A stretch of DNA of 43,433 bases, taken from contig JAKSUE010000001.1 in the NCBI GenBank assembly GCA_024409165.1, positions 1-43,433 on the forward strand, given 5' to 3'. Each line of letters starts with the position of its first letter. Position 1 is the stretch's first letter. The notes under the pieces were generated by a model, which searched no databases, had not been told where the DNA came from, and saw only the letters and a list, made by a program, of their open reading frames with translations. Of the stretch, positions 2,711 to 43,433 are shown one piece after another. A program made the translations under genes and the position numbers. This stretch comes from an archaeon (GTDB lineage Archaea; Methanobacteriota; Methanobacteria; Methanobacteriales; Methanobacteriaceae).

Positions 2711-2917
2711 ATGGATAAACAAAATCAATTAGAAAATAAACAAATGTTATTAAAAAATATGGAAGCTGCAATGTCAGCATATCAAAATATGTATTGAGCT
2801 TTTAAAAATGCAGAATTTGAAAAAGACGTACAAATTAAAGATTTAGCTACAAAAATTGAAGCTTTAAAGAAAGAAATTGAAGAAGAAAATAAAAAAACAG
2901 AAAGTAAAAAGAAATAA
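2711..2917 (+). CDS. Small coiled-coil protein (68 aa)
   Basis: AAGGAG RBS; K/E-rich heptads; stop overlaps the polymerase start (TAATG). Confidence 0.65.
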
Positions 2918-4776
2918 TGCAAAATTATAATCTAATCTTTTATGACTTTGAAATAAAAAAAGACTGATGATGTTGTACATTCTTAGAAAATGAAGAATAT
3001 ATTACAATATCAAATAGAGTTGATTTGATGAATTATATCTTAAGAAAACAAGAAAATTCAGTATTTATTGGTTATAATAATCATCATTTTGACAATTATT
3101 GTTTAAAAGCAATTTGATATGACATTAATCCTTATAAAATAGTTGACTGAGTAATTAAAGAAGGAAATAAACCTTGATTATTGCCAGAATTAAAATATAA
3201 GAAAAATGTAAATATTTATTCTTTTGATTTAATGAGAGCATTAGGTGTAATGGCACCACCGTTAAAAGAAATTGAAGGTAATTTAGGATTAGACATTATT
3301 TTCGATAAAACTATCACTGAAGAAAAAGAAGAAGGATTAACAAAAGAAGAAATTGAAAAAATAATTTCTTATAATAAACACGACGTTTTTACAACAAAAA
3401 AATTATTTGAAATAATTAGATATGAATATGATGCAATGATGTTATTAATTGACCATTATATGTTACCGATGTCTACATTATCAAAAAGTAAAGCGTCAAT
3501 GTTAGAAACAATATATAGAAATAATTTAAAAGAACCATCAAAAAAATCTTCATTTAAATACAAAGCACCTTCATTTATTAAATTATATGATGAACAAGTT
3601 AAAAATGCAATGGAAACTTTTGAATTTACAGAAGATAATGATTTTGATGCAACATTTGAATTTAATGGAGAAAAGTTTGTAATAAAAAGAGGAGGAGCTC
3701 ATTATGCTCTTAAAAATCTTTTTAAAAAATTAAATGAACATTGTATATTAGTTACTGCAGACTTTGGATCATTTTATCCTAATATGGCAGCTAATAAAAC
3801 AAATCCTGAACTTCGTTATATTGATGAATCTTTAGATTGAAATTTATTTAGTGATATGATTCAACTTAGAATGAAAGAAAAACTAAATAAAACAAAATTA
3901 TCTGAAGCATTAAAAATTCCATTAAATGGTGCTTATGGTAAGCTTATTGATAAATTTAGTAAATTATATAATTGACCAGCTGGATTATCAATTTGTTTAA
4001 CTGGACAATTAATTACAATTATGATTTGTCAAGAATTAGAGCACCGAAAAGTTGGTAAATTAGTAAACGTTAACACTGATGGTTTTTATTATTTAATTGA
4101 TTCAAAAGAAAAATTAAATGAATTTGAAAAAATCATGAAAGATTTTGAGTTAAAAACTGGAATAACATTTAGTTATAATATCATAGACAGTGGAATTTTT
4201 GCTCAAAAGGACGTAAATAACTATATAATATATGATAAGAAGAATAATAAAATCAAAACAAAAGGTGGAATGGTTAATCGTTATAACACTGATCGTATTT
4301 GATATCAATATTCTCAAGCAATTGTTGATGAAGCCGTAGTTAATAAACTTGCATTTAATAAACCAATTAGAGATACCATAATGGAAGCTTACGAAAAAAA
4401 CGAAGCTATCAAATTTCAAATTATCTCAAATATGAGAGGTAAAAATTGAGAAGGTTGTTATTTGTGTTGATCTAAAGATGAAGAAGAGTTTATTAATCAA
4501 ACAATGACTAAATCACAATTGACTAAAAAAATTAAAGAAGTTACAAAAACAGAACCTACTGAAAAAATAACAAGATGTTTTGCAGTGGCGGATAAATCAA
4601 AACCTAGATTAGGTAAATTAAAAGAAGCGACATATCATAAGTTTGCAAATACACCAAACCATATTTATATGTATAACAAAGATTTAAAAGACTTTGATGT
4701 ACGTAAAATTGGATTAGATATTGAATGATACTGTAAACTTGCACAAAAAAGAGTTGAAGCTTTCTTAGGAAAGTAG
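2917..4776 (+). CDS. Family B-type DNA polymerase with 3'-5' exonuclease (619 aa)
   Basis: ExoI YDFE, ExoII GYNNHHFD, ExoIII YNKHD; polymerase motifs DFGSFYPN, KIPLNGAYG and NTDG. Confidence 0.93.
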
Positions 4777-11283: not shown

Positions 11284-11299
11284 AAATTATCTATTATCC

Positions 11300-14632: not shown

Positions 14633-14667
14633 TAGTCAAAACCTCCTATTATATATATTATTTATAT

Positions 14668-14680
14668 ATTATATCACAAA
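14668..14680 (-). promoter_or_regulatory. Extended -10 promoter (TGATATAAT) for the fibre/neck/tail operon
   Basis: TTTGTGATATAATA on the minus strand; the same motif occurs at ~26228-26240 and a near-identical one at ~26875-26890. Confidence 0.65.
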
Positions 14681-14683
14681 AAA

Positions 14684-14718
14684 TAAAAATATAGACAGCT
14701 TTTTATGGCCGCCTATAT
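14684..14718 (-). terminator. Intrinsic terminator after the capsid operon
   Basis: ATAGGCGGC-loop-GCTGTCTAT stem followed by T-rich sequence on the minus strand. Confidence 0.75.
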
Positions 14719-14741
14719 TCTAATTATGAATTACAGCACTA

Positions 14742-15143: not shown

Positions 15144-15159
15144 AAGTTACCTCCTAAGA

Positions 15160-16074: not shown

Positions 16075-16108
16075 TAATTTGTCTCCTTATATTATAATAT
16101 TTATTAAT

Positions 16109-16669: not shown

Positions 16670-16773
16670 ATTTTCTCCTTATTTTTATCGTATAAGCACG
16701 AATATTCCCGAGTTTACATGATCGGCCATGTTATAATATTATTATACCGCAATTAATGCACTTATGCGCAGTT

Positions 16774-18246: not shown

Positions 18247-18248
18247 AA

Positions 18249-18761: not shown

Positions 18762-18772
18762 ATGTTACCTCC

Positions 18773-19081
18773 TTATCCAAATCTTTTTAAAAGATCTTTA
18801 TGTTCTTTTTTATCTTTTACTTTTTTTGCGGTTACTCCTGGTCTTGTTCTAATATTAAAAAATTCATGACCAACAGAACCTGTCATTAAATAAGGCATTC
18901 CTCTTTTAACTTCTTTACCTTGATATTTTCAAAAAGTAGAGTTTTTACCTTCTCCAAATTGAACGGTTAATTCATCTGGACCTGTTTGAATCAATTGATT
19001 TAAGTCTGGATTACTTGTTGATTTTGTTCTAGACTTACCACCTACAAATACAGTGGCTGTTCTTTCTTTTTTCTTTTCCAT
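18773..19081 (-). CDS. KTSC-like domain protein (102 aa)
   Basis: ELTVQFGEG...WKYQG...GSVGHEFFNIR resembles the KTSC pattern. Confidence 0.45.
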
Positions 19082-19111
19082 AATTACTCCTATATTATAT
19101 ATTATACTATA

Positions 19112-20749
19112 TTAATTCCAATTATGAACACTTATCGGACGGATTTTAGAAGAATATTTACCTTTACTTTTTCTAATTCTGTTTGTAAACATATCTCAAA
19201 ATTCTGGTAATCAACTATATTCGTTGGCATCGATATGGTCCATTCTCATTGAAAGTTTAGAAGGATCATCTAATCTAATACGTTCTCCAGTTTCTTTAGA
19301 TCTCTTTTTATCCCATACCTGATTTTTATAAGCTTGATAGATTAGAGGGTCTTTTATTTTTAATATTCCAGGTATGGTTAACGCAGTTCAAATACCATCA
19401 ATTCTTTTTGGTACATCTGGAGTTTTTCATAAACGATTTATAATTAAATAATCTGGATCTTTATATCTAAAACATGCATCATAAAAGTCTTTTCCACCTG
19501 ATGTTTTACGGTCCATTTGAAAATATATTCTATAAGAAGGATATTCTTCATGAACCATATCACAAAATTGTAATATCATTGTTGCATAATCATTAATATC
19601 AAATGATCTATACGGTAATTTAACACCGTCTTTAATATATTCAGATCTTCTATTACAATGACTTCAACAATGAATTCCTTGTTGTATTCTAAGATCTTTA
19701 CCTTTTCATTCAAATCCTGATAAAGTAATAACCGTTGCATCTGAACGACCAACGTCAACACCAATAACTAGTGTATCAGGATTAAAGTTTTCATGTTCAC
19801 CAAAGTGAATATTATAATTAAGATTAGGATAACATATATCTCCATCTCAAGGCATCTTACCTAAATAAACGTGATTATATGTTATTGGATCTGATAATTT
19901 TAAACCTTCAATTTCATCTAAAGCATCTTGACCAAGAAATTTATATTTTTCTTTAGTGCTCATATCAAGATAATTATTAAATTGATATCAAACATTTGAT
20001 TGTTTTCGTTTAACATCTAATCAATCTAATACTCAACCACCACTTGATTCTGTACCTGCTGGAGTGTTAAATTCATATTCTACGCAAAATTCATGAGATT
20101 TAAAATTGTCTCAATTATTATCTTGATAAAATCACGGTTGATCTAATAATCACTTCTCATTCTTCACGAAAGCATAACCATGAGAATTGCAATATAATTC
20201 TATCTTATCTCAAAGGGTTCTAGAATATGATGCCCGGATGAACGTGGCGATAGTATTTTCTAATTCTCTAGGATTTCAACCAATAAAGTTAGTTAATTCG
20301 TAAAATCTAACAAATAATCACTTATTGTGTTCTGTTGGACGGCGTCCTTTAAAAGATTCACTACCCATTTTACCATGTTCAAATCAAATTTTATTAACGC
20401 CTCATTTATTACGAATTTTTATTCATGCTTCACCATTCTTAGTTGCATGAAATTCTATATGTTGTCTTGGTATTTTTAATAAAAATGCAGCAAAAACATA
20501 GTCTTGAAATACTTTATCTAATATTGATTGATATTCATAAGCAATTACAAATCCATCTGCATGAGGTGTTTGAAGTAATCTTCATAAATCATACATTGAA
20601 AAGAACGTGGATTTTGTAGTTCCACGTCCACTGTGTAAAATTAAATGTCTAGCTTTTGGAATATATGTAAATAAATGTTGATAATAAGAAGCTATTTCTT
20701 CACTTAAGATTACTCTATTTCCTTCTATATAATCATTAGTAAATGGCAT
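19112..20749 (-). CDS. terL: Terminase large subunit, PBSX/SPP1-like (545 aa)
   Basis: Walker A HSGRGTTKST, Walker B-like RFYE, coupling motif FNT, nuclease motifs GVDVG and DHIDANEY. Absent from the code-11 track because of many TGA-Trp codons. Confidence 0.92.
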
Positions 20750-20836
20750 TTAATTCTCCTTTGTAATACATAAAAGTATTATTAAAATAATAACAATTAT
20801 AAATAATCCAAATATTACTCATAATGTCGGTGTCAT
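20750..20836 (-). CDS. 28-aa transmembrane peptide
   Basis: GAGGA RBS; MTPTLWVIFGLFIIVIILIILLCITKEN; abuts the terL start. Confidence 0.5.
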
Positions 20837-20891
20837 CTTTATTCCTCTAAGGTTAAGAATTTTCAAATAATATATAAGATTCTACACATAA

Positions 20892-22667
20892 TTAAATACA
20901 GAAGCACGGAGCAATAGGAAAGACAAGATTGTACTCATTGTAAGCAACTAAAACACCATTAGCTTCCACACATCAAGAAGAGTTGACAAAGGCTGAAGTT
21001 TCTGGTGAACGAAGTCGATATCGGCCATTACCAGCATCATAATCATAGCAAAAACCTGCATAGTTGCGAGCATCGTAATCATCACTAATAATAGGTGCTT
21101 CAGTATAATAATCACCATTATTAATTTGTGCTTTTTGTCTTGAAGTATTGTCGTCATGTGCTACATAATATTCATATGTTGTTCCTTCATTTGTTTGATA
21201 TATACTTGTTCCAGCAACAGTCATTTCTCTATAACTTGGAATAAATATTTTTGTAGCATAAGTTGTGTTAGTGTAAGAGTTTGTAGTTGCAACAACTTTA
21301 TTAACTTGTTTAATAACATTTTGTAGTCCAATAGGCAACATTTCTAATACTGAACTTGTATAAGTTGTAGATTTTGTTGTTGAACCTTTTTGGTATCAAC
21401 CAGCAAATGGAGCGGTTCCAGTTCCGTTAAGTGCTTTTTGTATATTTGAGTTTATAAAATCATAGTTTGTTGAACTACTACCATTTTGTCAGTCCCAAAC
21501 TGTCGCAATAGAGTGTCCTGTGTTATCACTTAATAAATTAACAAATTCCCAGGTAGTATGAGCTTTTCCACTTCCGTCTGCTAAATCGTCGTGATCTATA
21601 CCAATTAATCTAATAGTATGAGTAACACCATTAACTTCAACTTCTCTTGTTGTTCCAATGTCGTCTTCTGTTAATTCGTCAGTATGATCTCACCAATCTT
21701 CAGATGGTTCTGGTTCATCTGTTTTATAATAATATTTGTGTCCTACTGTTGGATTGCCAGTGAAATCACCTTTTGTTCCAGAAAACATACCTGAAACATC
21801 GCCACTTTCAGATATACTTCCTCCAATTAGGTTCATAAATAAAGTTCCAGTTGGATCATCCTCATATACTTTAATATTAGTATTATTAAACATGTTTGAC
21901 ATTGGATATTCTAGTGATGAAGGAGATGTTATTATTAATGGTTCATTATTGCCTATAATAGAAGGTTTTTCTAATTTTGTACAACCCTTAAACATAGATG
22001 TGAACATTGAATTTGTTATATTTATCGCTGGAATATTTTTTGGTGGAATAATTAAATTTGTTTGATCACTAAATAAATTAGAACAAATAGTTCCATCTGG
22101 AATTACTAAGTTTTCAGCAGACACTACATTTAAATTTTTAAAAATACTATTTGAGTAAGAAAATGAACTTGCAGTTTTATAATTTGTTAATGAAGTTATA
22201 TCTCCACCTATTTTTACATAATCTTGCACTGTGCTATTAAATTGAAATTGAGATGAAGTAAAATAAGTTGCACTCTCATTTCCTTTTATATATAACAATG
22301 ATCCAGCAGGAACTTCTATTTCTTTTCCTTCTGTTTCTAAGGCTGAAGCATATTCTCATTCATGTCAAGTTATATTATCAAAAGAATATTGTAATTGTGG
22401 GGATGAAGCACCATATCCAAAAATTTTTCATTTTATAGTTGTTTTTCTTTTTAAATACGGAACACTCATAAATGAAATATTAAGTGGTGCATTTTCAATA
22501 GGTTCTGGTCAAATAATTTCACCACCTCCACCTTCAATAGTAGCTATTGCAGCAGCTAAATTATTAGAGTTTTTATCAGCTGGAACAGTTCCACCTTTTT
22601 CATCTATTTTATCATAAGCTGCTAATAAATCATTATTTAATTGTGTAATTTTATCTGAAATAGCCAT
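20892..22667 (-). CDS. Receptor-binding fibre (591 aa): BspA-like middle, C-terminal DUF6273/C-type-lectin-like domain
   Basis: RLIGIDHDDLADGSGKAH, KIFIPSYREM and RLRSP...IAPCFCI-stop motifs. Confidence 0.75.
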
Positions 22668-22668
22668 A

Positions 22669-24516
22669 TTAATGAGCTCCTCCTCCAGTTGTTAATTCTT
22701 CAAGCAATGATTCAATATCACCAACTAAATCATATACACATTTAGCACTTGGATATTGCTCATCTGTTGAACTTGCAGTTAGTTCAGTAACTTTGTTTGT
22801 CAAATTTTCTTTATCTGTTAATGCATCATAAACTGCTTTAGCTCCAGGATATTGTGTATTTGTACTTGCGGAACTTAAAGTTGTAGTTTTATTTGACTTG
22901 TCTTCTTTATCATCGCCTAAATCACTAATACTTTCATTTATATTTACAATTTGTCCTTCAACTGTTGTTATTTTTGTTTCATGATTAGTTACTGTTAATT
23001 CTAAATCATCTAAATCACTTTGACTTGCTTTTGCATTAAATAATGCAGCAAGATTTGCATTAGTCATTGGATTACCAACAATTCTAGGTCAAGTAACTTC
23101 AGCTTCACTTGTTGATAATAATCCTCAATTTGTACCATCATAAATATAGAAATCACCAATATTAACAGTTTCTGTTTCTACTGTTGTACTTGCATTTCCA
23201 TCATATTCATCACCATTTGGTTTATATTTAGTACCAGTACCAACATTACTAATTACAAAATAATCACCTGTTTTATATTCATATGGTAAAGTTGGTGGAT
23301 TAGTTTCTGGTAAACCTGTTGAACAATCTCAAGTAGATAAGAATTTACCCATTGATTCAAGATTTGTAATTCTATCATTTAATTCTTTACCCATATTTGC
23401 TGATAAAGGTTTATTAGTATCAGTATGAGTTAAATCATTTATAATATCAACGATATCTAATTTTTCATTTAATAAATCATTTATTTCTAATTTTGTGTAA
23501 TATTGTGTCGGATCAAACGAACCACCAGCGTCTGCTCAAGTTAAAACTAATGTACCGTCTAAATCAATTACTTTCAAATATTTATTTTCAACATAGTTTG
23601 GTAATTTATCTTGCTTTTGAGCAAGTTCTCCAATTGTTGCTATTTCATAATCTGGATTTGTTGATATTACTGTTCCTTTTGTATAAAAGAAACCGTTCTT
23701 TGTTAAGTTTAATCTAGTACCGTTTTTTGTAGTTCCATCAACAACATATAATTGTCCAGCAATTCCAGTTGAACCGCCATCATTAACTCCAACATAACTT
23801 CATGTTCCATCATTGTGTTCAAATTTGGCACCACCACCATCAGCTTCGTTAAAGATAAGTGCTTTATTTCCAGCATCAATTATTTCTTTATCTACTTTTT
23901 TAGCTAATTTTTGGTCGATGATTTCTTTTGTGTAATAATTTAATAAATATTCTTCAATTTTAGCATCTGTTTGTGATTTATTATAAAATCTTACTAATGT
24001 TAAAATCTCGTGTTCAAAATCATAATAAAGTTTTCCGTCTTCATATGTAACAGCGTCTGTTAAACCTGAAATATCTTTTCAAGATAATTCTCATTTTTCA
24101 TCCTCTTCATTTCATTCACATTTTAAATATCCAGATGTCATTATTGTTGGATCAGGATATTCTGGTGTAATGTTGTAATAAGCTGAATCATGATAAATTT
24201 TATTACCATCTTCATCGAAGTGATATTCTCCTCCTCTTATTACTACACCATTTAATCATGGTCTATGTATAAAAACATCGTAATTAAATGAAGTAGGTCT
24301 TTTACAATTAGGTTCACCTAATCCATTAATTAGTGCATTTCAACTTACCATATCTCATTGTGTTAATCATCAACTTTCAAAAGTATGATAACCTTCTTCT
24401 GTTAGTGATTCAATATATTGTCTTAGATTTTCTCTGTTATCAATACATCATTGTTTGAAGTCATCTCGAGAAAGACTCATCATTATTTTCTTTGGATTTC
24501 AACTTGAATGTGACAT
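22669..24516 (-). CDS. Tail fibre-like protein (615 aa)
   Basis: Repeated KExxxNKxTxLxxxSTxxQYPxAKxVYD, YYTKxxxD and PLSANMGK fibre motifs plus coiled coil. Confidence 0.75.
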
Positions 24517-24746
24517 TATTTTTTTCCTCCTTTTTTATTTTTTTCTTCTTTTTTTCTTTGAAGTCTAGCTTTTATTTTTTCTTTTGGTTCAATATATCCT
24601 AATGTATTAAAATAAGTTTCATTTTCTCAATCTAAATTTGGATTTTCACGTTTTTTAATTACTTTATGATAATTATCTAAATCTACTTTTATTTTTTGTT
24701 CTTTTTTAAGTTGTTGTGAAAATATTTTAAAAAAATTATCGTTCAT
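24516..24746 (-). CDS. Basic hypothetical protein (76 aa)
   Basis: Open in code 4; TAATG coupling at both ends. Confidence 0.55.
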
Positions 24747-29146: not shown

Positions 29147-30481
29147 ATGACAAAACAAAAATTCGCCATTCAAAAAATTGAAGGTTATGTATCTAACGAC
29201 TGATATGAACAAAATTATCTTAGATATAGAGCAGGAAGTAGACTTGATAATGATTTACAAGCTACTAAATTAAAAGTTGACAAAATCAAAATGTTAAACG
29301 ACGTTTTAGAAGATTATTCTTCTACAAATAATGATGAAACAAACTGATTTTGACCAATTTTATATAATAATTGTCCTGAATCTTATTTAACAGAAAATTT
29401 TTGAAAATCACTATGATTAAAAATATTGAATGTATTAAATGATTATTCTGATAGAAAAATTCCTAGAGTAGTTATTACTATTCTAAGAAAATTTAACTGA
29501 AGATTTCGTCAATATTCAAATTACTGTACTCAAAATGATTTGCTTGAACCAATAATCGGACAATTTGATCCATCAGTTTTAAGCAATAGTGTAAAAACAG
29601 CAATTACACAATCATTTAATGAAATAATTGCAATAATTAAAAATAAATTTGAAACATTACCGAAATTTTATAGACCAAATGAATACGGAGTATGAAATAA
29701 TACATTAAGTCCTGAATGACCAAAATTTGGTTATAATTCACATAGACGCATAACAGTAACTCCATTAGTAGAAAATTCAAATGTTATGAAATATGGAGCA
29801 GAATTAGAAGGCGTAATGAGTAATTCAGATTATCAAAATGCTTGTACAGAAATGTCAAAAACACCATTTGAAGGTGGATTTATCTTAGACAAAAGAAATT
29901 TAATTATGGGTACAGAAGATGGTTCATTACCTAGAGATACTGGAGTAGAATGAGTATTTGCACCATTTTCAATTGCTAAAGGTAAAGAATTTTGAAAAAA
30001 AGTAGAAGAAATTTTAGAAAAACATCATTTTAAAAGAACTTGCAATGACTTTTGTTGAGGACTTCATATTCATTTAGATGCAGATAAATTTAAAAATAAA
30101 TCAGTAATTGAATCATTTATTAATAAAGTTTATTCATATCCTGCTTTTGAATTATACACTTTCTTTAAAAGAAATGCAAATACATATTGTAGTTGAGACA
30201 TTGATTCAGTTCGTTATTATGAAGAAAACTGAAAAGAATTACCAGGACAATTTACAAAAGATAATAAACAACTTGGTTATTTAGAAAAAAGTTTCAAATT
30301 AAGATGTAGTCGTTATAATTTAATTAATACTACAAATATTAAATGAATTGATTCTAATTCAGATAATGAAATTGAAAAAGGAACTGTAGAAGTTAGAGGT
30401 TTCTATGCAGTGGTTAAAATTATAGACGCTGTAAATATTATTAAAAACAAATTTTTAGAAGGAGTAATACAATGTGCGTAA
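29147..30481 (+). CDS. Putative amidoligase (COOH-NH2 ligase, glutamine-synthetase-like fold; 444 aa)
   Basis: YGAELEG, EDGSL, GVEWV, GLHIHL, RY..IN and TVEVRGF motifs. Confidence 0.85.
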
Positions 30482-31050
30482 TTGTTCACAATTGATTTAA
30501 CAAACCATTTAACAAACAAAGAATGGAAAATTTTTATAATCTTAATCACGATGGAACAGGATTATATTATTACAATGAAAATACAAATAAAACAGTAGTA
30601 AAAAAATGAGAAGGCAATGTTCCATTTAATCAAATATGACAAACTTTAAATTCATTGCATCATCATAAACAAATTCGAAATGTTGCAGTTCATTTTAGAT
30701 ATAGCACTTCTGGAGGAAAAGGTGAAAAACAAATTCATCCAATGAAAATGAGTAATGGAATATATTTAATGCACAACGGTGTATTACCGGCTTTTGAATT
30801 TGACACAAGAATAATGTCTGATACTCAATTATTAGCTTTTTGATTAGATAATGTATTTGACAAAAAATATATTAAAACTTTAGCAGAATTAAATTATTTA
30901 ACAGTAAATACTTTAGAACAAAGTGTATTAAATGGAAATAAGGTATTACTGTTACAAAAAGATAAATATATGATTTTTAATCAAGAGCTTGGTGAATGAA
31001 AAGATGATATATGATATTCTTGTAAATTATATTATGATACCTATGATTAA
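30472..31050 (+). CDS. Class II (Ntn) glutamine amidotransferase (192 aa)
   Basis: N-terminal MC, NHDGTG, HFRYSTSG, HP, HNGV and SDT motifs. Confidence 0.9.
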
Positions 31051-34216: not shown

Positions 34217-34903
34217 ATGGAAAATAATGACATTAAAAAATTAAACGACGGTAATTATGAAGCTATCGTTAGACAAGTATATAATAAAGATAAAGAAAAC
34301 GGTAAAAAAATTGTATTGATGGAATTAGACGTTAAAGGTCAAAATGATTATCAATATATTACATTCTTTATTGAAGGATACAGTCAAAAATCTCAAGAAA
34401 TTTCAATGGCAAGAATGGATGAAATTAAAAAGAAATTTGAAATTGAAATTATTGAACAAATGGAAGGAAAAGAAGTAACATTAACAGTAAAAACAAATGA
34501 AAATGGATTTACTAATATGTATCTTTCTCCTAAACGTGAATTTTATGATTGAACAAAAGAACTTAAACACGACGGTGAAGCAAAGTTTGATTGTTTAGTT
34601 AAGAAATTTTATAAGACAATGAAAGGAAATAAATACAACTTTATTGTTGAAATCAATATTGACGGTAAAATTGTTACTGAATTTGTTTTATACGATTTAG
34701 ATTTTATATATAATAACGAAAAAGTTGGACAAATGAGTTTTGAAAGAGCACTTAATAAATTAGGAGTTACAGCAGATCAAGAAGATGTAGACATTAATAA
34801 GCCTGCAAAATTGATTGTTAAACGTATAACTAAAGGTGATAAAGTATTCTTTAATAAGAAACTTGCTTGAGATAAACCAACTAAGGAACATTATTGAAAG
34901 TAA
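34217..34903 (+). CDS. Putative ssDNA-binding protein, DUF669-like (228 aa; alternative in-frame start at 34031)
   Basis: LNDGNYEAIV...EGKEVTLTVKTNENGFTN pattern; the second half looks like a second similar domain. Confidence 0.5.
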
Positions 34904-35056
34904 GGAGAAAGTATGAAAAATAATTCACATCATAAATACGTATATAAAAAACTCTTTAAAAAATATTTTGCTTCTACAAAATATGAATTAATGGATATTT
35001 TAGATTACGAAGGAATATCTTATAATCCACAAAAAATTAAGAAGTTATATTAAAAA

Positions 35057-35512
35057 ATGGAAAAACATGAATTAATAGATCCTACTTGATTAACTGATTG
35101 TAAAGCAGTGATTAAACAAATGTCTCCTGAGGAAAAAGCCATTGCATTATTTGCGTGTAAACAAGTCAGTGATAAACTTGAACCTGAAATAAAAAAGGCT
35201 TTATTAGAAGGAACAATTGAAAAATTTGAATTTATTTATAATGGAACTCCTACTATAATCACAATTTCAAGAGGAAAAGAAACTTTAAAAGAAGTGGAAA
35301 ATAAAGTTATTGATTATGACAAAGCAATTGCTTTTGCTAAAGAACATAATTTTGAAATACCAATGACTCCACCAATTCCACCGCAAATTGACAAGATTAA
35401 ATTGGAAAATATGACTTGATTTCAAGATAATTGCCAACAATTTGTGACTAAAATAAAAGAAACGAAAAAAACAAAATCTTATGATAGATTTATAATTAAG
35501 GAAAAGAAATAA
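35057..35512 (+). CDS. Hypothetical protein (151 aa)
   Basis: Track ORF extended through TGA at both ends. Confidence 0.6.
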
Positions 35513-35736
35513 TGAAAAATGTTAAAAAAATGTCAAATTCTGGTTTATATAAAAGAATGAAATCTGCAAGTAGAGATTATGATATTGCAGAAGAACGACA
35601 GACGTATTTAACCGGATATATCTTTAAAAAACAATTACAAAATCAAGCGAATGACGCTGAAATAAGATATCATGAAGCTAGACAAGAATTGTTTAATAGA
35701 CAAGATAAAAAAAGACAAAGAAAAAACAAAAGATAG
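35512..35736 (+). CDS. Basic hypothetical protein (74 aa)
   Basis: ORF track; TAATG coupling. Confidence 0.6.
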   Translation: MKNVKKMSNSGLYKRMKSASRDYDIAEERQTYLTGYIFKKQLQNQANDAEIRYHEARQELFNRQDKKRQRKNKR

Positions 35737-35757
35737 GCCAAACGGCTTATTTTTTAT
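35733..35757 (+). terminator. Intrinsic terminator, followed by a TATAAT promoter for the modification operon
   Basis: ATAGGCC-AAAC-GGCTTAT-TTTTT; TATAAT at ~35778-35783. Confidence 0.65.
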
Positions 35758-35803
35758 TTTCTTTTAGATTATTTGAGATATAATAAAATATGAAAGGAAA
35801 TTT

Positions 35804-36523
35804 ATGACATTAATAGAAAAAGAAACCATAATGGATGTTTATGATAGTTTAGTAGATAAATTATTAAAAGCACCAATTGTCGGAAATACAAAAGAACTTA
35901 ATAATTGTTGTTTAATAGTTAACAATCCATCTTTAGAAAATATTCAATTTGCACCAAAAAACACAAGCTTAAAATATGCAGATGCCGAATTAAAATGATA
36001 TTGATCAGGTTCAAATTCTTGCAAGGAAATTGGTCAATATGCTAAAATGTGATTAGAATTAAGTGATGATGGAGAAACTAATAATTCAGCTTATGGATAT
36101 ATATTATTTAAGAAATATAAGTTTAATCAATTAGAACAAATCATTAAGTTGTTGAAAAAAGATAAAAATACAAGAAGAGCCGTATTAAACATATCAGATC
36201 CAACAATTGATCGTATTAATACTAAAGATATGCAATGTACAATTGCTTTACAATTTTTAATTCGTAATGGTAATTTAGAAGAAACTGTATATATGAGAAG
36301 TAATGATATAAATTTTGGATTACCTTATGATTACATTTTCTTTGTTAGCATTGGAAAATATATAGCTAAACGTTTAGGAATTAAATTAAGTAAATACACA
36401 CATCATGCTACTTCATTACACATGTATTTAAGAGATGAACCTAAATTTAGAAGTATTAATGTTTCACAACCATTTACAATTGACTGAGAAAAATATATAA
36501 AAGAATATTATGAAAAAATTTAG
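35804..36523 (+). CDS. Thymidylate-synthase-fold enzyme, dCMP hydroxymethylase-like (T4 gp42-like; 239 aa)
   Basis: ELKWYWSG, NSAYG, TRRA, DMQCT (catalytic Cys), MRSND and SLHMY motifs. GLPYD has Asp at the pyrimidine-specificity site, where dUMP-specific ThyA has Asn. Confidence 0.85.
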
Positions 36524-36929
36524 TCATATCATATTAGAAGGAGTAGACGGCATAGGAAAAAATACTCTAATGAATTTGTTATGACCTCATTTTCACGGTG
36601 AAAAACATGTTTATTGTCGTGGAGATATATCAAATTGAGTATATGCGCAGAAATATGGAAGAAAGTTTATTCCTATTCAAAAAGATTTAGACTTTTTATA
36701 TATTATATTAATTGGACCGACAGAAAGAATAAAAAAACAAATAAAATCAAGACCATATGATAATGATGAAAATGAACTAAATAAAATATCCGATCAAAAA
36801 ATATTTATTGATGCGTATAATGAATTAAAAGATATATATAATATAATTTTAATAGATATCCGGTGATTAGAGAGCACTCAGATTATTAATTTAATATTAA
36901 ATTATATAAATAAAAAGGAGAATGAATAG
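36510..36929 (+). CDS. P-loop nucleotide monophosphate kinase-like protein 1 (139 aa)
   Basis: IILEGVDGIGKNT; CRGDISNWVY in place of DRxxxSxxxY. Confidence 0.75.
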
Positions 36930-36930
36930 A

Positions 36931-37425
36931 ATGAGAATAATTATTGAAGGGTGTGAATGTACTGGAAAAACAACACTGTCGAATTGATTAGCTTGAAAAT
37001 ACAATTTAAAAGAAAGACACATAACTTCGACAGATAAAAATACATATACATTTTATAAGAAAACACTTAAAAAAGATAATATCATATATGACAGACATTT
37101 TATAGGTGAGATGATTTATCCTGAAATATATAAAAGAAAAGGACATTTAAATCAAAGAAAATTTGAGAAATTATTAAGACAAGCAGCATTTAATGATACT
37201 ATAATTTTTATTTTATATTGTGATAAAAAAACATTAATGAAAAGATATAAAATACGAGGCAGAAAAAAAAATAAAAATATTGTTAACAATATGAATATAA
37301 TAAATAATAAGTTTATTGAAATTGGAAAGAAGTATTGAAAAAACATAAATATGATTGATACTACAAAAGGAATAAATTATGATTTAATTAATATTTTAAT
37401 TTCAAAAATGGAAGGAAAAATATAA
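36931..37425 (+). CDS. Thymidylate/dNMP kinase-like protein 2 (164 aa)
   Basis: IIIEGCECTGKTT and DRHFIGEMIY motifs. Confidence 0.85.
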
Positions 37426-39621
37426 TGGACAAAACAAAATTAATATCAACAATTAAGCTTTTAAAAGAATTGAATTATGTAAATAGATGTATAACAATTG
37501 AAGAATTATGCGATATAGCAAAAACGTGTTTATTAACAACTGAGGAATTAAGAAAAGAAATTTCAATATTATTAGGTTCAATTGATTATAAAGAATTTGG
37601 TGAAGAAGAAGAATTTTGAAACGCAAAAGAAAGATTAAATATTCTAGAATCAGAATTACGAAAAAGAGAAGGATATTAATATGACAGAACACGAAATTAA
37701 AAAAGATAAGTTATATAGAGTAGATGGAAAACTTTATTCAGGAATTCAAATAATCCAAATTATTGGAATAAATCAAAAAATAGTAGATGAAATATACAAA
37801 GAGTTTTCAAAGGAACATTTAACAAATGATAGAACTAAAAATTAAATGAAAATCACAAGAAACAAATTCACCATTATTATATTGATATTCTCACCAACCA
37901 TCAACATTAAATAAAAAGATAATCAAGGATGCGTTTAATGACAGAATTAAAAATTAAGAGAGAAAGTATAAATTCTACATTTGATTATCTTCTGCCAGCA
38001 ATAAAAAATGATTTAATAAAAATTATAAAGGATATGAAATTATGTTAGAATTAAAAATTAAAAAGAAATACTTTGATGCTATATTAGAGTTTATGAGTAA
38101 ACCAATGACTATTGAAGAAATATTTGAAAGAATAAATTGAAAGGACTATTGTGAATATTATGGTTGAATTAAAGATTAATAAAAAATATTTTGATGCAAT
38201 TTTGTCGTTAAAGAAACCATTTGAATTAAGACATAAAGCAATACCAAAAGGTAGTATTGTTAAGTTAAATGAAATTGTAGATTTAAAATATACAGATACC
38301 GACCAATGAATCATAAAATATGGAACAAAACAAACAGGTCGTTATATTATCTTTGAAAGTGGTAGTTGCACACCTTTAATTAAAAATGGTAATAAATATA
38401 CAATAAATATTGATGATAATTGAAACTTTATAGATATTATAGGTTTTAATAACAATAAAGCAGAAGGTGAGTTTTCATTATATTATCATAATTTTTACAA
38501 AAAACCAGTTGTTGAACTGATAGATGATTATTATGGTAATAGTTGTATATTAGATTATCAATGATTAGACAACTTTTGTTGAGATTACATTAACGAAAAA
38601 CAAACTTATTTAATTGAGATAGAAAATATTATAGAGGTAAAATAATATGAATATAACAAAAGAGTTATTTATAGATGCGTTAGACGCTGCAGTGTGTTAC
38701 GCAGAAACTCACAATATTAAGAGTATAAATATGTGAGATGAATATGAAGATATTTATAAGAGATATAATAAGAGGTAAAATAATGAGTTTATTACAAGCA
38801 TTAGAAATTAGAAAATTAAAAAAAGAAATAGAAAATCTAAATAACTTAAATGAAGAATATATGATTCAAGAATCCTGTTTATTTGAATTAAAATTAAAAT
38901 TAGCAAACTGCGAAGAATATATAAAATCATTAGAACAAGAAAATAAAGACTTAAAAAATGAACTAAAATTAGCAGCTGCAAAATTAATTATTAAAGGAGT
39001 AAAATAACATGATAGTTCTGTTAACTGAAATTGCTGAAGTAGATGATAAAACAAAGAAAATAATTAGAAAAGAAGGAAAAATAGTTATTCAGGAATGAGA
39101 AATAACACAAGAAAATGTTCCATTTTTATCTTTTAGACTATCAGAATGTCTTAATCAAGTTAAAAGAAAATGAGATAAAGAGGTAAAATAATGGAAAAAT
39201 GATTTTTTCTTTTTAATAAATGAATATCATATAATGGATTTCTTTGATCTGAAAAATCAAGAAAAGAATTATGACAAAAATTTGTAAAAGCAATAAAAGA
39301 TAAATATAATATAAAAACAGAAAAAATTAACTGAAGAGAACTTGATTTTAATAAAGTTGGAAAAGACTTGTGTGAATATTATTTAGATGAAAACGGTGTC
39401 CAACACGATGGAATTTTTATATTAGATAATATGTCTGGATTATGAAAGGAAAATAAATAATGAAAAAAGTTATAGTTGAATTTGATATTAATGAAAATGT
39501 TATCGCAGTATGAACACCAAAAGAGTTTAATGAATATATTAAATCTAAACCATTATTTGCTCATACATATTTTCTTGAATTTGAATTAAATCAGCCTAAA
39601 GATAATGGAGAAAAATTATAA
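37425..39621 (+). other. Array of small, tightly packed hypothetical ORFs
   Basis: Repeated RBS-ATG starts (GAGGTAAAATAATG, AAGGA) and short code-4 ORFs; individual boundaries not all resolved. Confidence 0.6.
38160..38645 (+). CDS. ASCH/DUF3850-like domain protein (161 aa)
   Basis: ELKINKKYFDAILSLKKPFELR...KGSIVKLNE...TGR pattern. Confidence 0.7.
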
Positions 39622-40838
39622 TGAAATATGTTATTTTAATGGGTAGAGGAATTGAAGGAACTGGAAATACTAAATACGCTATTGAACTTCAAGAGTATTT
39701 AGAATCTTGTGGCGATCAAGTCATATGTTATGCAAACGCGGATCGTAAATGAGGAAGAGAAAAGTCTCATCAAAACAACATTCAATTAATTAAATATTCT
39801 AAAGAACAAGATAAAATCATTCAAAGTTGTGCAGAAGCTGACAAAATACTTATATTAAGTGTTCCAGCAAAAAATTATATTAAAGAAACAAAAGATGCAT
39901 TTATTAATATTTTAGCAGAATCATTTAAAATTGGTAAAGATATTATTTATTTTCAAGTAGATCATTCTATTTACAGCATTGCTAGAAACTTTTATAAAGA
40001 ACCAGAATATGAAAGATTTTTTGTTTATTTATCAAAAGTTATAACTCACAGTAAAAATGGCGATTTTGTTAAAAAATATAAGAATGTTTTAAAAGAAGTC
40101 ATCACTACAAGTGATAGATTAAATGGAATTAATGGAATTAATTTTTCTAAATATAAATCTTATTGAAAACTATTTAATGAAAAATTAAACAAATCTATTA
40201 AGTTTATAGGTCGCGCGGCATCTTGAAAAGGTCCTTATTTATTTAGAGAACTTCATGAAAAATATTTTAAAAGTGAAGGATATATTTGTAGTTGTGAAGG
40301 AATGGAAATGTCAATTGGTAGTTTAGACACTATGTTAAAGTCATTAAAACCGCGTTTACCAAGAGATGATAATGATCTTTGATTTGATAAAGAACATATC
40401 AAACAATTAAAAGAAGGAACTGCGGTATATGAAAGAAATCATCCTATTTATATGATGCCTCCTTATAATAATAAAGAAGCTTTAGAAAGATTAAGTCAAT
40501 GTCAATTTGGAATTGAGTTATTATTATTAAAAGATGAAATCTTAGGAGATGTTTTTGAATATGCAATGCTCGAAATGATAGCTGTCGGTGTAATACCTAT
40601 ATTTAGAAAGAAATGAGGACAAAATTTTAAAATAAATGGAAAATCATTGTTTGATTATGGAGCTCAAACTGGAACTATTTGATTAGATGAAGAACATCCT
40701 GAAGAAGCAGTTCAGTTAATTAATCAATTATCTCAAAATGAAATGATGTATAATATAGTTAGAAATAATGCATTTGATTTTTATTCTAAGTACTTAGATA
40801 ATGCAGTAATATATAAACAAATAAAGGAGTTATTATAA
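39621..40838 (+). CDS. DNA alpha-glucosyltransferase-like enzyme (T4 Agt family, GT-B; 405 aa)
   Basis: N-terminus ILMGRGIEGTGNTKY resembles T4 Agt FMARGLEGCGVTKF; also LSVPA, QVDH, THS, IGRAASWKG, EGME and EYAMLE...G.IPIF; length close to Agt. Confidence 0.88.
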
Positions 40839-40839
40839 A

Positions 40840-41256
40840 ATGAAATTTAAATTATTAAATGATCAGGTTAAATTGCCAGAATTAAAACATGAAGGTGATG
40901 CAGGTTATGATTTATATTTATATGAACCTGTTATAATTCAACCAAATACTATTACAATAATTAATACAGGAATAGCTGTTGAAATTCCAAATGGTGAAGT
41001 TGGTATTATTGTACCGCGAAGTTCAATTACTACAAGTTGTCAATTTCAACTTCAAATGCCACTAATTGATAGTAATTATAGAGGTGAAATTCATATTATA
41101 GTTAATAATCCTACAAATTATTATTATGAATTTAAAAAGAATGACAGAATTTGTTCTTTATGTGTATTTAAAGTAGATACATCTAAACCTGAAGAAATAA
41201 AAGAACTTTCACAAACAAACCGAGGAGAAAATTGAAATGGAAGTACGGGTAAGTAA
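40840..41256 (+). CDS. dut: Trimeric dUTPase family protein (138 aa)
   Basis: DAGYDL, PRSS, IDSNYRGEI, DRI and C-terminal RGENWNGSTG (through TGA). Confidence 0.9.
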
Positions 41257-41804
41257 AATATTAAAAAAATTAGATGAAATTAGAGAAAAAATTTATTTAA
41301 CATCTTTTGTCGATGAATTAAAACTTTTAATATTAGATTGATATGAATGAGAAATCATTACTTATTGTAAAGGAAATGAAAATAAAAAAATATCAGAAAA
41401 AGATCTAAATAAAATAAGAAATAAAATTGCCAAAGAAATTAGAAATAATTTTATTTATGTGTAATGTATTATTATTAAAACATAATAAGTATGCAAATAT
41501 AAATACTGAATATCAAAAAATTGCTTCATTTGATACAATTGAAGAAGCAAAAGAATATATATCAAAACAAAATAAAGAAGACAAACAATGAGAATATCAT
41601 TATTGTTGCCAATGAAAGGAATAAAATGAAATATAAATCATTAGCATGTAAAGATTGACCAGAGCATTATTTATATCTTGATAAAGAACATCGTTGTCAT
41701 TTTATAATTAATAAAAAATTAATTGAGCAATTAGAACAACAAGATTGAAAGTGTGGTACTTGATATGAATGTTCAATTACAGAAAATAATAAAGGAGAAA
41801 TAAC

Positions 41805-42467
41805 ATGTCTTTATCAAAAATAGAAGTTTTAGGAAGTTCAAGCAGTGGCTGTGCATATGTACTTTATTTTGATAATGGAAAAGTTTATCAATTAGATGCT
41901 GGCGTAAAGAATCCTAAAAAAGAACTTGTTAATAAATTATTTATAAGTCACGATCATCCTGATCATATTAAATATTTGAAAGATTATTCTAAAATAGAAA
42001 TTATTAGAGAACAAGAAGAAGAACGTATAACAGAACAATTAATAAGTTTTGTAGTACCACACCGTGTTTTAAATAACGGTTATCTTATTATAGAAGATAA
42101 TTCAAAGATTGGGTACATCACAGATTGTGGTGATTGAGATTCTATTAGAAGTCTTGATTTAAGTGGTTTAGATTATTTATTTATTGAATCAAATTGAGAC
42201 GCAATAGCAATAGCACAACAACGTATATTTGCTGCTGAACATTCAAAATATTCATTTAGTAAATTAGGTCATATGTCAAATTTAGATTGTCTAAGAGCAA
42301 TTACTGATTGAAAAGTAGGAAAAAACTGTAAAATAATATTTATTCATAAATCTAGTCAACACACAATCTATCCAGACTCATTTAAACTATTTGATATATT
42401 ACCTAATCAGTGACATGTTGCAAGAGCAGGAGACATAATTTACTGTAAAAGTTGAAAGGTGATATAA
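41805..42467 (+). CDS. Metallo-beta-lactamase-fold hydrolase (220 aa)
   Basis: GSSSSG, DAG, SHDHPDH, VPH, ITDCG, IESN and GHMSN motifs. Confidence 0.88.
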
Positions 42468-42655
42468 TATGAAACCATTTAATTTAGATTATTCATTTCC
42501 AATAAAAACATTGGATGAACAAATTAATAAATATATTGATGAAGCAAGAGAAAAAATATGTAAAACAGAAGAGGCATGATTGCTTATTGAAAAATACGAA
42601 CAAAAAGATTGAAAGTTTTTTAAAAAACTATATAAATTATTAAAAAGGAAAAAAT

Positions 42656-42838
42656 ATGGACAATAAATTAGATTTAATTAAATTTGCAATATGTGAACAA
42701 AAAGAAAAACAAATTAAAGAAGCATTAAAAACAGGCAATGCAATAAGATTTATAATAGACATTAATTATGTAGATTTTGAAATATATAAAAACATAAAAA
42801 TAATGTTGAACACTAAAAAGGAAAAATATGGACAATAA
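42656..42838 (+). CDS. Hypothetical protein (60 aa)
   Basis: ORF track; AAGGA RBS. Confidence 0.55.
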   Translation: MDNKLDLIKFAICEQKEKQIKEALKTGNAIRFIIDINYVDFEIYKNIKIMLNTKKEKYGQ

Positions 42839-43133
42839 ATTAAAAGATAGAATAACTGATAATATTATCAAATACGATATTAGAGACATTGAATATGACT
42901 GACAGAAAGAATTAGGTGTCGAAAATAATCAATATATGATTTGTAAAAGAACCATTCTTTTTGATTTAATGACTTATGAAGATATCGCTATTGAAGATAA
43001 GAAAAAAGAAGCAAATAAATTATTTTATAAAGCAGCATTAGAAAATTTAAAGAAACAAAAAATGCTAAACAGCGAAGATAAAAAACAAATAGAAAAGAAA
43101 TAATATATAATAATAATAATTGAAAGGAATAAT

Positions 43134-43364
43134 ATGAAATTAACTTATAAAGAAAAATATCAACTACTAAAAAAAGATTATGAAGCTTTAAATAAGAATT
43201 ATCAAGCATTATTAGAAAGCATTGGATCATTAAAAGAAATAGCAAATAAAATGATTCAAATTGTTAAACCAAAAGCAGATCCTAATGAAGTTGCACAAAA
43301 AATAATTGATATTAAAGAAGAAGTAAAAAAAGAAGTTAAAAAAGCACTGTCAGTAAAAAGTTAA
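43134..43364 (+). CDS. Coiled-coil hypothetical protein (76 aa)
   Basis: ORF track; GAAAGGA RBS. Confidence 0.65.
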   Translation: MKLTYKEKYQLLKKDYEALNKNYQALLESIGSLKEIANKMIQIVKPKADPNEVAQKIIDIKEEVKKEVKKALSVKS

Positions 43365-43433
43365 AAAAAGGATATTAAAATGACTAAAAAGAAAAATAAT
43401 GAAAAAATAGTAATTTATGTTGGAAATGAAGCA

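What the first reader, a model, noticed from the sequence alone, without database searches (positions are those of the whole stretch)
35804..41256. T4-like glycosyl-hydroxymethylcytosine DNA modification pathway in a small code-4 phage
Seen: one operon holds a TS-fold enzyme with Asp (GLPYD) at the specificity site, two NMP kinases, a full-length T4 Agt-like GT-B enzyme and a dUTPase-family enzyme. Established: Asp rather than Asn at this site marks dCMP-acting enzymes such as T4 gp42, and Agt glucosylates hmC in DNA, protecting T-even phages from restriction. Inference: this 43-kb phage replaces C with a 5-modified C and glycosylates it, using its own PolB. I know of no described example in a Mollicutes phage. 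The exact base (hmC or 5-hydroxy-C) and the sugar cannot be read from sequence.
Basis: partly seen in the sequence, partly recalled or inferred. Interest (0 to 1): 0.9.

Follow-up and report, generated by a model that had tools for sequence, protein, structure and literature searches.

The report
Sugar-masked cytosine in a recoded phage
A 43-kb gut phage that reads TGA as tryptophan carries T4-type genes predicted to replace cytosine in its DNA with a sugar-coated form that would shield it from host nucleases; the pathway is known from other phages, but this one likely infects a mycoplasma-type host.

Summary
All five genes are present and intact under code 4. The thymidylate-synthase-fold enzyme matches T4 dCMP hydroxymethylase at 16 of 16 active-site positions compared. 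These include Asp142 (hydroxymethylase), Asp176 (cytosine), Asp168 (not the Asn of 5-hydroxy-C synthases) and Ser166/Arg124 (deoxyribose). So the base can be predicted: 5-hydroxymethylcytosine. The glycosyltransferase is a true T4 alpha-glucosyltransferase relative (Z 49, 1.8 A). The likely product is alpha-glucosyl-5hmC; the sugar and the extent of replacement are untested. The system is not new. The same kinase + hydroxymethylase + dUTPase + glucosyltransferase set sits in Enterococcus phage VPE25, whose DNA tests as glycosylated at C, and in many standard-code viral contigs. The scan noted a related cassette before on other DNA. Two things are new: it occurs in a fully code-4 phage, and the cassette is a mosaic in which a beta-type transferase domain appears lost and an alpha-type gained. 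The host is not shown. The contig is binned with a code-11 methanogen, probably by error; Mycoplasmatales is inferred from TGA use in 37 of 38 Trp-containing genes. No dCTPase is identified. Verdict: new member of a known kind, interest 0.4.

The parts
35728..35755 (+). Terminator-like hairpin just upstream of the hydroxymethylase gene; suggests the cassette opens a new transcription unit (inferred)
   Evidence: 1 site found in 34800-43433, shuffle mean 0.8, so not above chance by count; only its position is suggestive
35804..36523 (+). Predicted dCMP 5-hydroxymethylase (thymidylate synthase fold, 239 aa): E62, S95, Y97, R124, R125, D142, C145, S166, D168, D176
36510..36929 (+). Kinase 1 (139 aa): the N-terminal NMP-kinase-like domain of a kinase/beta-glucosyltransferase-like fusion, without the transferase half; P-loop reads GKN, activity doubtful
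36922..37425 (+). Kinase 2 (167 aa): dNMP kinase family with intact P-loop (GKT); predicted 5hm-dCMP kinase
   Evidence: (YorR 6.6e-5)
37425..39621 (+). About seven small co-oriented ORFs with no link to the pathway, one with a weak DUF3850 hit (38151-38645)
39621..40838 (+). T4-type DNA alpha-glucosyltransferase homologue (GT-B, 405 aa)
40840..41256 (+). Trimeric dUTPase-family enzyme (138 aa) with non-canonical motifs 3-5; dUTPase likely, dCTPase activity unproven
2917..4776 (+). Phage DNA polymerase (phrog_1252), predicted to incorporate the modified nucleotide; followed by a D5-like primase-helicase at 4787-6784

Best explanation
This code-4 phage encodes a T4-type dCMP hydroxymethylase and a T4-type DNA alpha-glucosyltransferase, so it is predicted to build 5-hydroxymethylcytosine into its DNA and then cap it with a sugar, likely glucose, which would block host restriction enzymes. 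Step 1 (inferred, strong): Cys145 attacks dCMP, selected by Asp176; host methylene-tetrahydrofolate gives the carbon, and Asp142-activated water gives 5hm-dCMP. Step 2 (inferred): kinase 2 makes the diphosphate and host kinases the triphosphate. Step 3 (inferred): the phage polymerase puts 5hm-dCTP opposite G. Step 4 (inferred, strong for DNA glycosylation, moderate for glucose): the AGT relative flips out 5hmC and transfers a hexose from a host UDP-sugar in alpha linkage; no sugar-synthesis gene was detected in the window. Step 5 (weak): dCTP may be lowered by the dUTPase-family enzyme; if not, replacement is partial. History (inferred): the hydroxymethylase, kinase 1 and dUTPase come from a clade of standard-code phages with a kinase/beta-transferase fusion; the beta-type half was lost and an alpha-type transferase with a second kinase was gained. 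Host (inferred, about 0.75): a code-4 Mycoplasmatales of an animal gut, not the methanogen it was binned with.
For: 16 of 16 compared active-site positions are identical to T4 gp42, whereas RB69 gp48 (5-hydroxy-C), Xp12 TS (5mC recalled), Goe9 gp29 (dUMP) and three ordinary TS differ at the diagnostic sites. Diagnostics from PMC13326640, PMC6400193 and PMC5175136. D142, C145, D168 and D176 are invariant in 79 of 79 aligned clade members. TS model pLDDT 93.7; top matches MilA Z 24.7, AfhB 23.3, T4 dCH 22.1, ordinary TS about 21. AGT model pLDDT 93.3; T4 AGT Z 49.4, 1.8 A over 379 residues, next family Z 25.4. The closest cultured TS relatives (46-51%) are Enterococcus phages; VPE25 has kinase-TS-dUTPase-beta-GT in a row, and its DNA resists bisulfite and MspI but is cut by PvuRts1I. 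Recurrence: of 48 TS-clade loci, 36 have a dUTPase-family gene, 34 a kinase, 10 a beta-GT, 2 an AGT, and 4 the kinase-GT fusion (loci are partial contigs, and a few share a contig with other loci). 42 of the 80 best AGT loci (of 310 found) have a TS homologue in the stretch held. Code-4 host: TGA 177 vs TGG 5 in 20 long ORFs, replication genes included; 37 of 38 Trp-containing ORFs use TGA; no tRNA found.
Against: No activity was measured. The fold alone does not separate hydroxymethylase from hydroxylase (Z 24.7 vs 23.3); the call rests on residues. AGT differs from T4 at H114 (V113 here) and at T308/H309 (A315/M316), near the donor site by my recall, so the sugar may differ. No dCTPase was identified: the dUTPase subtype carried here sat beside an Asp-type TS in only 4 of 28 loci. 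GalU was found in only 43 of 179 genomes of the code-4 order sampled, SHMT in 137 of 179, so many such hosts may lack UDP-glucose. No AGT was found in 398 genomes and no portal relative in 360 genomes of that order (neither search had a positive control ring). The window's TS is not close to the three TS genes found in code-4 genomes (38-47% identity; separate branch in a quick tree). Only 35% of TGA-recoded gut phages had a detectable suppressor tRNA, so the lack of one here is weak evidence.
Confidence: 0.7

Rival explanations
1. The base is 5hmC but the sugar is not glucose (for example galactose or an amino sugar from the host pool), giving an undescribed glycosyl-5hmC.
For: Only about 30% identity to T4 AGT; substitutions V113, A315 and M316 against T4 H114, T308 and H309, with V113 shared by the gut clade. 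GalU is patchy in the likely host order (43 of 179).
Against: Fold nearly identical to T4 AGT (Z 49.4, 1.8 A). R46, H115, H143, R198, K203, E313, Y314 and E318 match T4. No sugar-nucleotide gene was detected in the window, unlike phage ATCCB, which has a UDP-galactopyranose mutase.
Confidence: 0.15
2. Same chemistry, but the host uses the standard code and the phage recodes TGA itself, or the host is another code-4 lineage such as recoded Eggerthellaceae; the Mollicutes claim would then fall.
For: [quoted passage not shown] Code-4 Eggerthellaceae occur in mammal stool. All 48 TS-clade loci are code 11. No spacer or prophage link to any host was found.
Against: In described self-recoding phages TGA is enriched in structural and lysis genes, while replication genes are standard or variable. 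Here polymerase, primase, DnaB-like and TS genes use only TGA for Trp; no tRNA, release factor or TrpRS was detected. GC of 27% matches the Mycoplasmatales mean of 27.1%, not the recoded Eggerthellaceae 31-40%. The polymerase-primase-hydrolase module resembles Mycoplasmopsis phage PMF329 (26-29%), though it is also common in Bacillota phages. No endolysin was detected.
Confidence: 0.22
3. Cytosine is only partly replaced because the dUTPase-family enzyme is an ordinary dUTPase and dCTP stays in the pool.
For: It passes TIGR00576 dut (109 bits vs cut-off 102.6) and fails dCTP deaminase. Its subtype occurs without an Asp-type TS in 24 of 28 loci. No T4 gp56-type enzyme was detected.
Against: A dUTPase-family gene accompanies 36 of 48 TS-clade loci, mostly lacking the motif-3 Gly and carrying His at +8. 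Canonical-type dUTPase loci had an Asp-type TS in 0 of 80 and 0 of 46. VPE25, with the same subtype, resisted bisulfite in the stretch sequenced; its whole genome was not searched for another dCTPase.
Confidence: 0.35
4. The TS-fold enzyme makes 5-hydroxy-dCMP (RB69/HY126 type) or 5-methyl-dCMP, or is an ordinary thymidylate synthase.
For: AfhB (HY126 dCMP hydroxylase) is within 1.5 Z of the top structural match. Databases annotate relatives as thymidylate synthase.
Against: Asp168 rather than the Asn reported in all tested 5-hydroxy-dCMP synthases; E62 kept where RB69 has Phe; Asp142 rather than Leu (TS) or Asn (Xp12); Asp176 rather than Asn; fails all eight NCBIfam TS cut-offs.
Confidence: 0.06

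Closest known systems
Bacteriophage T4 glucosyl-5hmC system (gp42 dCMP hydroxymethylase, dNMP kinase, gp56 dCTPase, alpha- and beta-glucosyltransferases)
   Same: Hydroxymethylase active site identical at 16 of 16 positions compared; AGT same family and fold (Z 49.4); own DNA polymerase.
   Different: 43 kb rather than 169 kb; code 4; only 26% (TS) and about 30% (AGT) identity; no gp56-type dCTPase, no beta-GT and no sliding clamp detected; YorR-like kinases; trimeric dUTPase-family gene.
Enterococcus phages VPE25 / VFW / 9183 (Andrewesvirinae) and Lactobacillus phage ATCCB
   Same: Closest cultured TS relatives (46-51%); adjacent kinase and TS with the same D/C/D/D signature, a glucosyltransferase, and in VPE25 the same dUTPase subtype; VPE25 and VFW DNA tests as glycosylated at C (PMC4999554).
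   Different: They use a beta-glucosyltransferase, are 80-87 kb and code 11; VPE25 has a Pol III alpha-type polymerase and a second sugar transferase.
Uncultured low-GC phages with TS + kinase/beta-GT-like fusion + dUTPase + polymerase (loci L001, L096, L097, L098)
   Same: Nearest TS relatives in the viral collection (59-64%; one clade, SH-aLRT 100 in a quick tree); nearest dUTPases (43-45%); kinase 1 matches the fusion's N-terminal domain (33%, 2e-25).
   Different: Code 11; they keep the beta-GT-like half (hhalign 95.9%) and a dCMP deaminase, and have no AGT in the stretches held.
RB69 / HY126 / DLP3 arabinosyl-5-hydroxycytosine systems
   Same: TS-fold enzyme acting on dCMP, adjacent kinase and glycosyltransferase.
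   Different: They carry the D169N signature, a flavin and arabinose-synthesis genes; the window has Asp168 and no such genes detected.
MilA CMP hydroxymethylase (mildiomycin pathway)
   Same: Best sequence and structure match among solved proteins (4e-22; Z 24.7).
   Different: MilA prefers ribose through Ala176/Lys133; the window has Ser166/Arg124, the deoxy-selecting pair.

Membership tests
dCMP hydroxymethylase (T4 gp42 type) | Thymidylate synthase fold with catalytic Cys and Glu60 equivalent | tested here: met
   C145, E62; model vs T4 dCH Z 22.1, 2.5 A, 209 residues
dCMP hydroxymethylase (T4 gp42 type) | Asp at the ThyA N177 position (cytosine selection) | tested here: met
   D176 = T4 D179; invariant in 79 of 79
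dCMP hydroxymethylase (T4 gp42 type) | Asp three residues before the Cys plus Ser-x-Tyr (hydroxymethylation signature, PMC6400193) | tested here: met
   D142, S95, Y97 = T4 D145, S94, Y96
dCMP hydroxymethylase (T4 gp42 type) | Converts dCMP to 5hm-dCMP | not testable with these tools
   needs an assay
5-hydroxy-dCMP synthase (RB69 gp48, AfhB) | Asn at the ThyA D169 position | tested here: not met
   D168 here, N186 in RB69 gp48
Canonical thymidylate synthase ThyA | Asn177 and Leu143 equivalents; NCBIfam cut-offs | tested here: not met
   Asp at both; below all eight cut-offs
CMP hydroxymethylase (MilA) | Ala176/Lys133 ribose pocket | tested here: not met
   Ser166/Arg124
T4-type DNA alpha-glucosyltransferase (PF11440) | Full-length profile match over cut-off and AGT-specific GT-B structure | tested here: met
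   117 bits vs cut-off 25; Z 49.4, 1.8 A, 379 residues; next family Z 25.4
T4-type DNA alpha-glucosyltransferase (PF11440) | Conserved donor and acceptor pocket residues | tested here: inconclusive
   R46, H115, H143, R198, K203, E313, Y314, E318 match T4; V113, A315, M316 differ; residue roles are recalled, no paper found
T4-type DNA alpha-glucosyltransferase (PF11440) | Transfers glucose from UDP-glucose to 5hmC in DNA | not testable with these tools
   needs an assay
Complete cytosine-replacement system (T4 type) | An enzyme that removes dCTP | tested here: inconclusive
   only a trimeric dUTPase-family gene; its subtype is not diagnostic, 4 of 28 loci with an Asp-type TS
Complete cytosine-replacement system (T4 type) | Phage dNMP kinase and phage DNA polymerase | tested here: met
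   PF02223 8.5e-10 at 36922-37425; phrog_1252 1.5e-94 at 2917-4776; specificity untested
Phage of Mycoplasmatales | Genome-wide TGA = Trp, early genes included | tested here: met
   37 of 38 Trp-containing ORFs use TGA; 177 TGA vs 5 TGG
Phage of Mycoplasmatales | Direct host link (spacer, prophage, co-assembly) | tested here: inconclusive
   bin is a code-11 methanogen; no portal relative in 360 genomes of a code-4 order; spacers in those genomes were not searched

The most novel reading that the evidence does not exclude
This is the first T4-type sugar-modified-cytosine pathway in a virus of wall-less, code-4 Mycoplasmatales. It was assembled by swapping a beta-type for an alpha-type transferase, and it completes cytosine replacement with a trimeric dUTPase-fold enzyme retuned to destroy dCTP, a type of dCTPase my searches did not find described. 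Together with hydroxymethylase islands in three code-4 genomes, it implies a base-modification arms race in minimal cells.
Probability: 0.2. Interest if true: 0.7.

Novelty: new member of a known kind. Interest (0 to 1): 0.4.

Why it matters
It would extend T4-style cytosine hypermodification to a small phage of a genome-reduced, code-4 host, which would then have to supply methylene-tetrahydrofolate and a UDP-sugar; that narrows the host candidates. It marks a large uncultured family (414 TS relatives at E <= 1e-30) that databases label 'thymidylate synthase', and whose window copy public code-11 gene calls break into 64- and 114-residue pieces. The apparent beta-to-alpha transferase swap matters because some defences are linkage-specific: Brig1 attacks only alpha-glucosylated C (PMC13216743). 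It also supplies a divergent AGT and a candidate trimeric dCTPase that are easy to assay.

Tried and rejected
1) dUTPase motif as a marker of a dCTPase: the subtype without the motif-3 Gly and with His at +8 is common in the cassettes (His in 30 of 44), but an independent scan found an Asp-type TS beside only 4 of 28 such loci (best 80 of at least 568 kept). Controls: 0 of 46 canonical loci in that scan and 0 of 80 in a separate scan. Enriched, not diagnostic. The cellular comparison set has a motif-3 insertion, so only 7 of 30 fit the counting pattern. 2) The bin as host: G000's other 327 contigs read as code 11 and hold McrA; no spacer-like match to the window, only short AT-rich hits. RF2 was not found, which says nothing for an archaeon. 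Codon-usage distance did not separate the window from the bin. 3) Code 25 (TGA = Gly): rejected by Trp conservation. 4) Close relatives of the phage: single-protein scans of viral contigs with AGT and the polymerase found none; terminase had no match among annotated phages; the portal had none in 360 genomes; AGT none in 398 genomes (no control rang). 5) Locus L088 looked code 4 by coverage, but its cassette genes use only TGG. 6) Restriction-site avoidance was mixed: CATG, GATC and CTAG are depleted, others are not; not used as evidence. 7) Completeness: no terminal repeat; laying the one run that holds the DNA gave fragments and no circular joint in the part laid; that run may be the source and is not independent. 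8) The careful TS tree did not finish; only the quick tree is reported, and long branches are unreliable. 9) Literature: no paper holds hydroxymethylase + glucosyltransferase + phage + Mollicutes; two related searches listed 5 papers each, none on this by title or abstract start; the GT census tables of PMC13216743 name no Mycoplasma, Spiroplasma or Acholeplasma phage; a search on trimeric dCTPases showed none by listing; no open paper gave AGT residue roles. Subscription papers are not searched. 10) The family of the 444-aa protein at 29147-30481 remains unassigned.

Full report
What the window is. It is one whole contig (C1, 43,433 bases, 27% GC) of assembly G000. Long-ORF coverage is 0.84 under code 4 and 0.31 under code 11, while the other 327 contigs read equally under both (0.83 vs 0.84) and use TGA as a stop in 50 of 943 long ORFs. 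The rest of the bin holds McrA, so it is a methanogen, and the contig is most likely mis-binned on similar composition. The contig encodes a terminase, portal, major capsid protein, a phrog_1252 polymerase, a D5-like primase-helicase and a DnaB-like protein, so it is a tailed phage. No terminal repeat was found, so completeness is not shown. TGA is read as Trp: TGA-coded positions are Trp in 78 of 78 (TS W65, W83) and 48 of 48 (AGT W44, W202) homologues.

Observation. The five genes are present as described. They are co-oriented but not compact: about seven small ORFs fill 2.2 kb between kinase 2 and AGT. The only terminator-like site in 34800-43433 lies just upstream of the TS gene, though one site is what chance gives.

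The TS-fold enzyme. Its best solved relatives by sequence are MilA and T4 gp42. A confident model (pLDDT 93.7) matches MilA (Z 24.7), HY126 AfhB (23.3), T4 dCH (22.1) and ordinary TS (about 21), so the fold does not decide the product. Residues do. PMC13326640 (parts 1 and 5-7 of 10 read) states that Asp at ThyA N177 selects dCMP, an acidic residue at L143 goes with non-methyl products, and Asn at D169 marks all tested 5-hydroxy-dCMP synthases. PMC6400193 (passages) gives Asp145 with Ser94 and Tyr96 as the hydroxymethylation signature. PMC5175136 (passages) shows Ser/Arg versus Ala/Lys selects deoxyribose versus ribose. Aligned with reference enzymes, the window matches T4 gp42 at 16 of 16 positions compared, including D142, C145, S166, D168 and D176. 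RB69 gp48 has N186, Xp12 TS has Asn at the -3 site, Goe9 gp29 has Asn at the specificity site, and three ordinary TS have Leu and Asn. These residues are invariant in 79 of 79 aligned clade members, chosen from the best 120 of 414 hits.

The glycosyltransferase. It matches T4 AGT over residues 1-400 (2.8e-42). Its model (pLDDT 93.3) superposes on T4 AGT at Z 49.4 and 1.8 A over 379 residues, twice the Z of the next family. Many pocket residues match T4, but V113, A315 and M316 do not; their roles are from my recall, as no open paper was found. No sugar-nucleotide gene was detected, so the donor should come from the host; UDP-glucose is the likeliest, not proven.

How common it is. An alignment-based scan found 48 viral loci of the TS clade; all 48 keep the D/C/D/D signature and all read as code 11. 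Of these, 36 have a dUTPase-family gene, 34 a kinase, 17 the same polymerase family, 10 a beta-GT and 2 an AGT; 4 carry a kinase-GT fusion. Of the best 80 of 310 AGT loci, 42 have a TS homologue in the stretch held. Full kinase + AGT + TS + dUTPase sets occur in L003, L004, L005, L032-L036, L083, L089 and L092. Among cultured phages the closest TS genes are in Enterococcus phages 9183, VPE25 and kin (46-51%). VPE25 has kinase, TS, dUTPase and beta-GT in a row, and PMC4999554 (section 7 read whole) reports that its DNA resists bisulfite, EcoRI and MspI and is cut by PvuRts1I. So the pathway has an experimental precedent in a smaller Gram-positive phage. The scan itself noted a related cassette on another genome.

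A mosaic cassette. The nearest TS relatives (L001, L096-L098; 59-64%; one clade with SH-aLRT 100 in a quick tree) sit beside a 385-411 aa protein whose first 140 residues match kinase 1 (33%, 2e-25) and whose C-terminal part matches a set of ten beta-GTs (hhalign 95.9%, E 6e-9; controls under 1%). The window keeps only the kinase part, with Asn for Thr in the P-loop, and has no trace of the transferase half. No other stand-alone copy was found among proteins of 76-244 aa beyond the window's own. AGT and kinase 2 resemble those of other cassettes (AGT up to 59%). I infer that a beta-type domain was lost and an alpha-type enzyme with a second kinase was gained; the order of events was not tested with a rooted tree. 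Linkage matters to some defences: Brig1 is alpha-specific (PMC13216743, passages).

The missing dCTPase. Full replacement needs removal of dCTP. The only candidate identified is the trimeric dUTPase-family gene, which passes the dut cut-off and fails dCTP deaminase. Cassette copies mostly lack the motif-3 Gly and carry His at +8. An independent scan showed this subtype beside an Asp-type TS in only 4 of 28 loci, against 0 of 46 and 0 of 80 for canonical types. That is enrichment without diagnosis, so the extent of replacement is open.

The host. TGA outnumbers TGG 177 to 5 in 20 long ORFs and is the only Trp codon in the polymerase, primase, DnaB-like and modification genes; 37 of 38 Trp-containing ORFs use it; no tRNA was found. 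Self-recoding phages of standard-code hosts concentrate TGA in structural and lysis genes, though only 35% show a suppressor tRNA (10.1101/2021.08.26.457843, passages). Known code-4 bacteria in guts are Mycoplasmatales (mean GC 27.1%) and some Eggerthellaceae (31-40%) (10.64898/2025.12.01.691617, passages). The polymerase-primase-hydrolase module resembles Mycoplasmopsis phage PMF329 at 26-29% and a code-4 genome G354, but is not specific to them. In G593 and G551 the intact gene has the same D/C/D/D signature beside a kinase and, a few kb away, a dUTPase, in phage-like islands, with no glycosyltransferase recognised in the stretches read; G653 holds a fragment. So a 5hmC module does reach code-4 cells, but those enzymes are only 38-47% identical and branch elsewhere. 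No AGT (0 of 398) and no portal relative (0 of 360) was found there. SHMT was found in 137 of 179 and GalU in 43 of 179, so only some hosts could supply both substrates. I put Mycoplasmatales at about 0.75.

Novelty. The chemistry and gene set are known (T4; VPE25). My searches found no report in a Mollicutes phage, and the GT census tables of PMC13216743 list none; subscription papers were not searched, and supplements of the other papers were not read. What is new is the likely host range, the code-4 context and the inferred transferase swap. Verdict: new member of a known kind, interest 0.4; the bolder reading with a trimeric dCTPase in a Mycoplasmatales phage has probability about 0.2.

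Noticed in passing
L345:7154-11224, L346:9078-14808, L347:9512-9895 (G593, G551, G653): Code-4 genomes carry an Asp-type hydroxymethylase with kinase and dUTPase in phage-like islands among transposases; intact in two, a fragment in the third; no glycosyltransferase recognised nearby. The gene content looks Spiroplasma-like (recalled).
   Followed up: partly
window, whole contig; G000: A code-4 phage contig is the largest contig of a code-11 methanogen assembly, probably mis-binned; public code-11 gene calls break its TS gene into 64- and 114-residue pieces.
   Followed up: yes
window 29147-30481 and 30472-31050: A 444-aa protein with motifs resembling phage amidoligases (recalled, no profile hit) next to a class II glutamine amidotransferase-like protein (GATase_6 0.0013, purF 4.8e-5); target unknown.
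   Followed up: partly
window 6919-24746 (minus strand): The structural module is very divergent: terminase has no match among 50,697 annotated phage records and the portal is only 20-23% identical to any; no endolysin or tape-measure protein was detected; 11008-11283 has an N-terminal hydrophobic stretch like a holin.
   Followed up: partly
window 38038-38100 and 38160-38220: A short degenerate copy of the start of the DUF3850-like ORF lies just upstream of it, suggesting a local duplication remnant (seen by eye).
   Followed up: no
L353:2122-2928 and 5001-5681 (Bacteroides phage BF503P1): Two TS-fold paralogues, both with Asp at the -3 and specificity positions, flank a dUTPase in a 52-kb phage.
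   Followed up: no
L087:401-5582 (Agathobaculum phage AB434P2): A 44-kb cultured gut phage has an Asp-type TS annotated as a dUMP enzyme, flanked by a kinase and unannotated genes that look like glycosyltransferases and sugar-activation enzymes by eye; possibly a different sugar on 5hmC.
   Followed up: no
L269-L321 (viral contigs): The same non-canonical dUTPase subtype occurs in 24 loci with no TS-like gene in the stretch held; why it lost the motif-3 Gly is unexplained.
   Followed up: partly
window 609-1205, 1354-2283, 41805-42467: A GIY-YIG endonuclease-like gene, a metallophosphoesterase-like gene (phrog_284) and a metallo-beta-lactamase-fold hydrolase (phrog_392) could act on host DNA or nucleotides; untested.
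   Followed up: no
L088:4046-4873: A TS homologue beside a close AGT (54%) has its specificity Asp shifted by one residue relative to the usual spacing.
   Followed up: no
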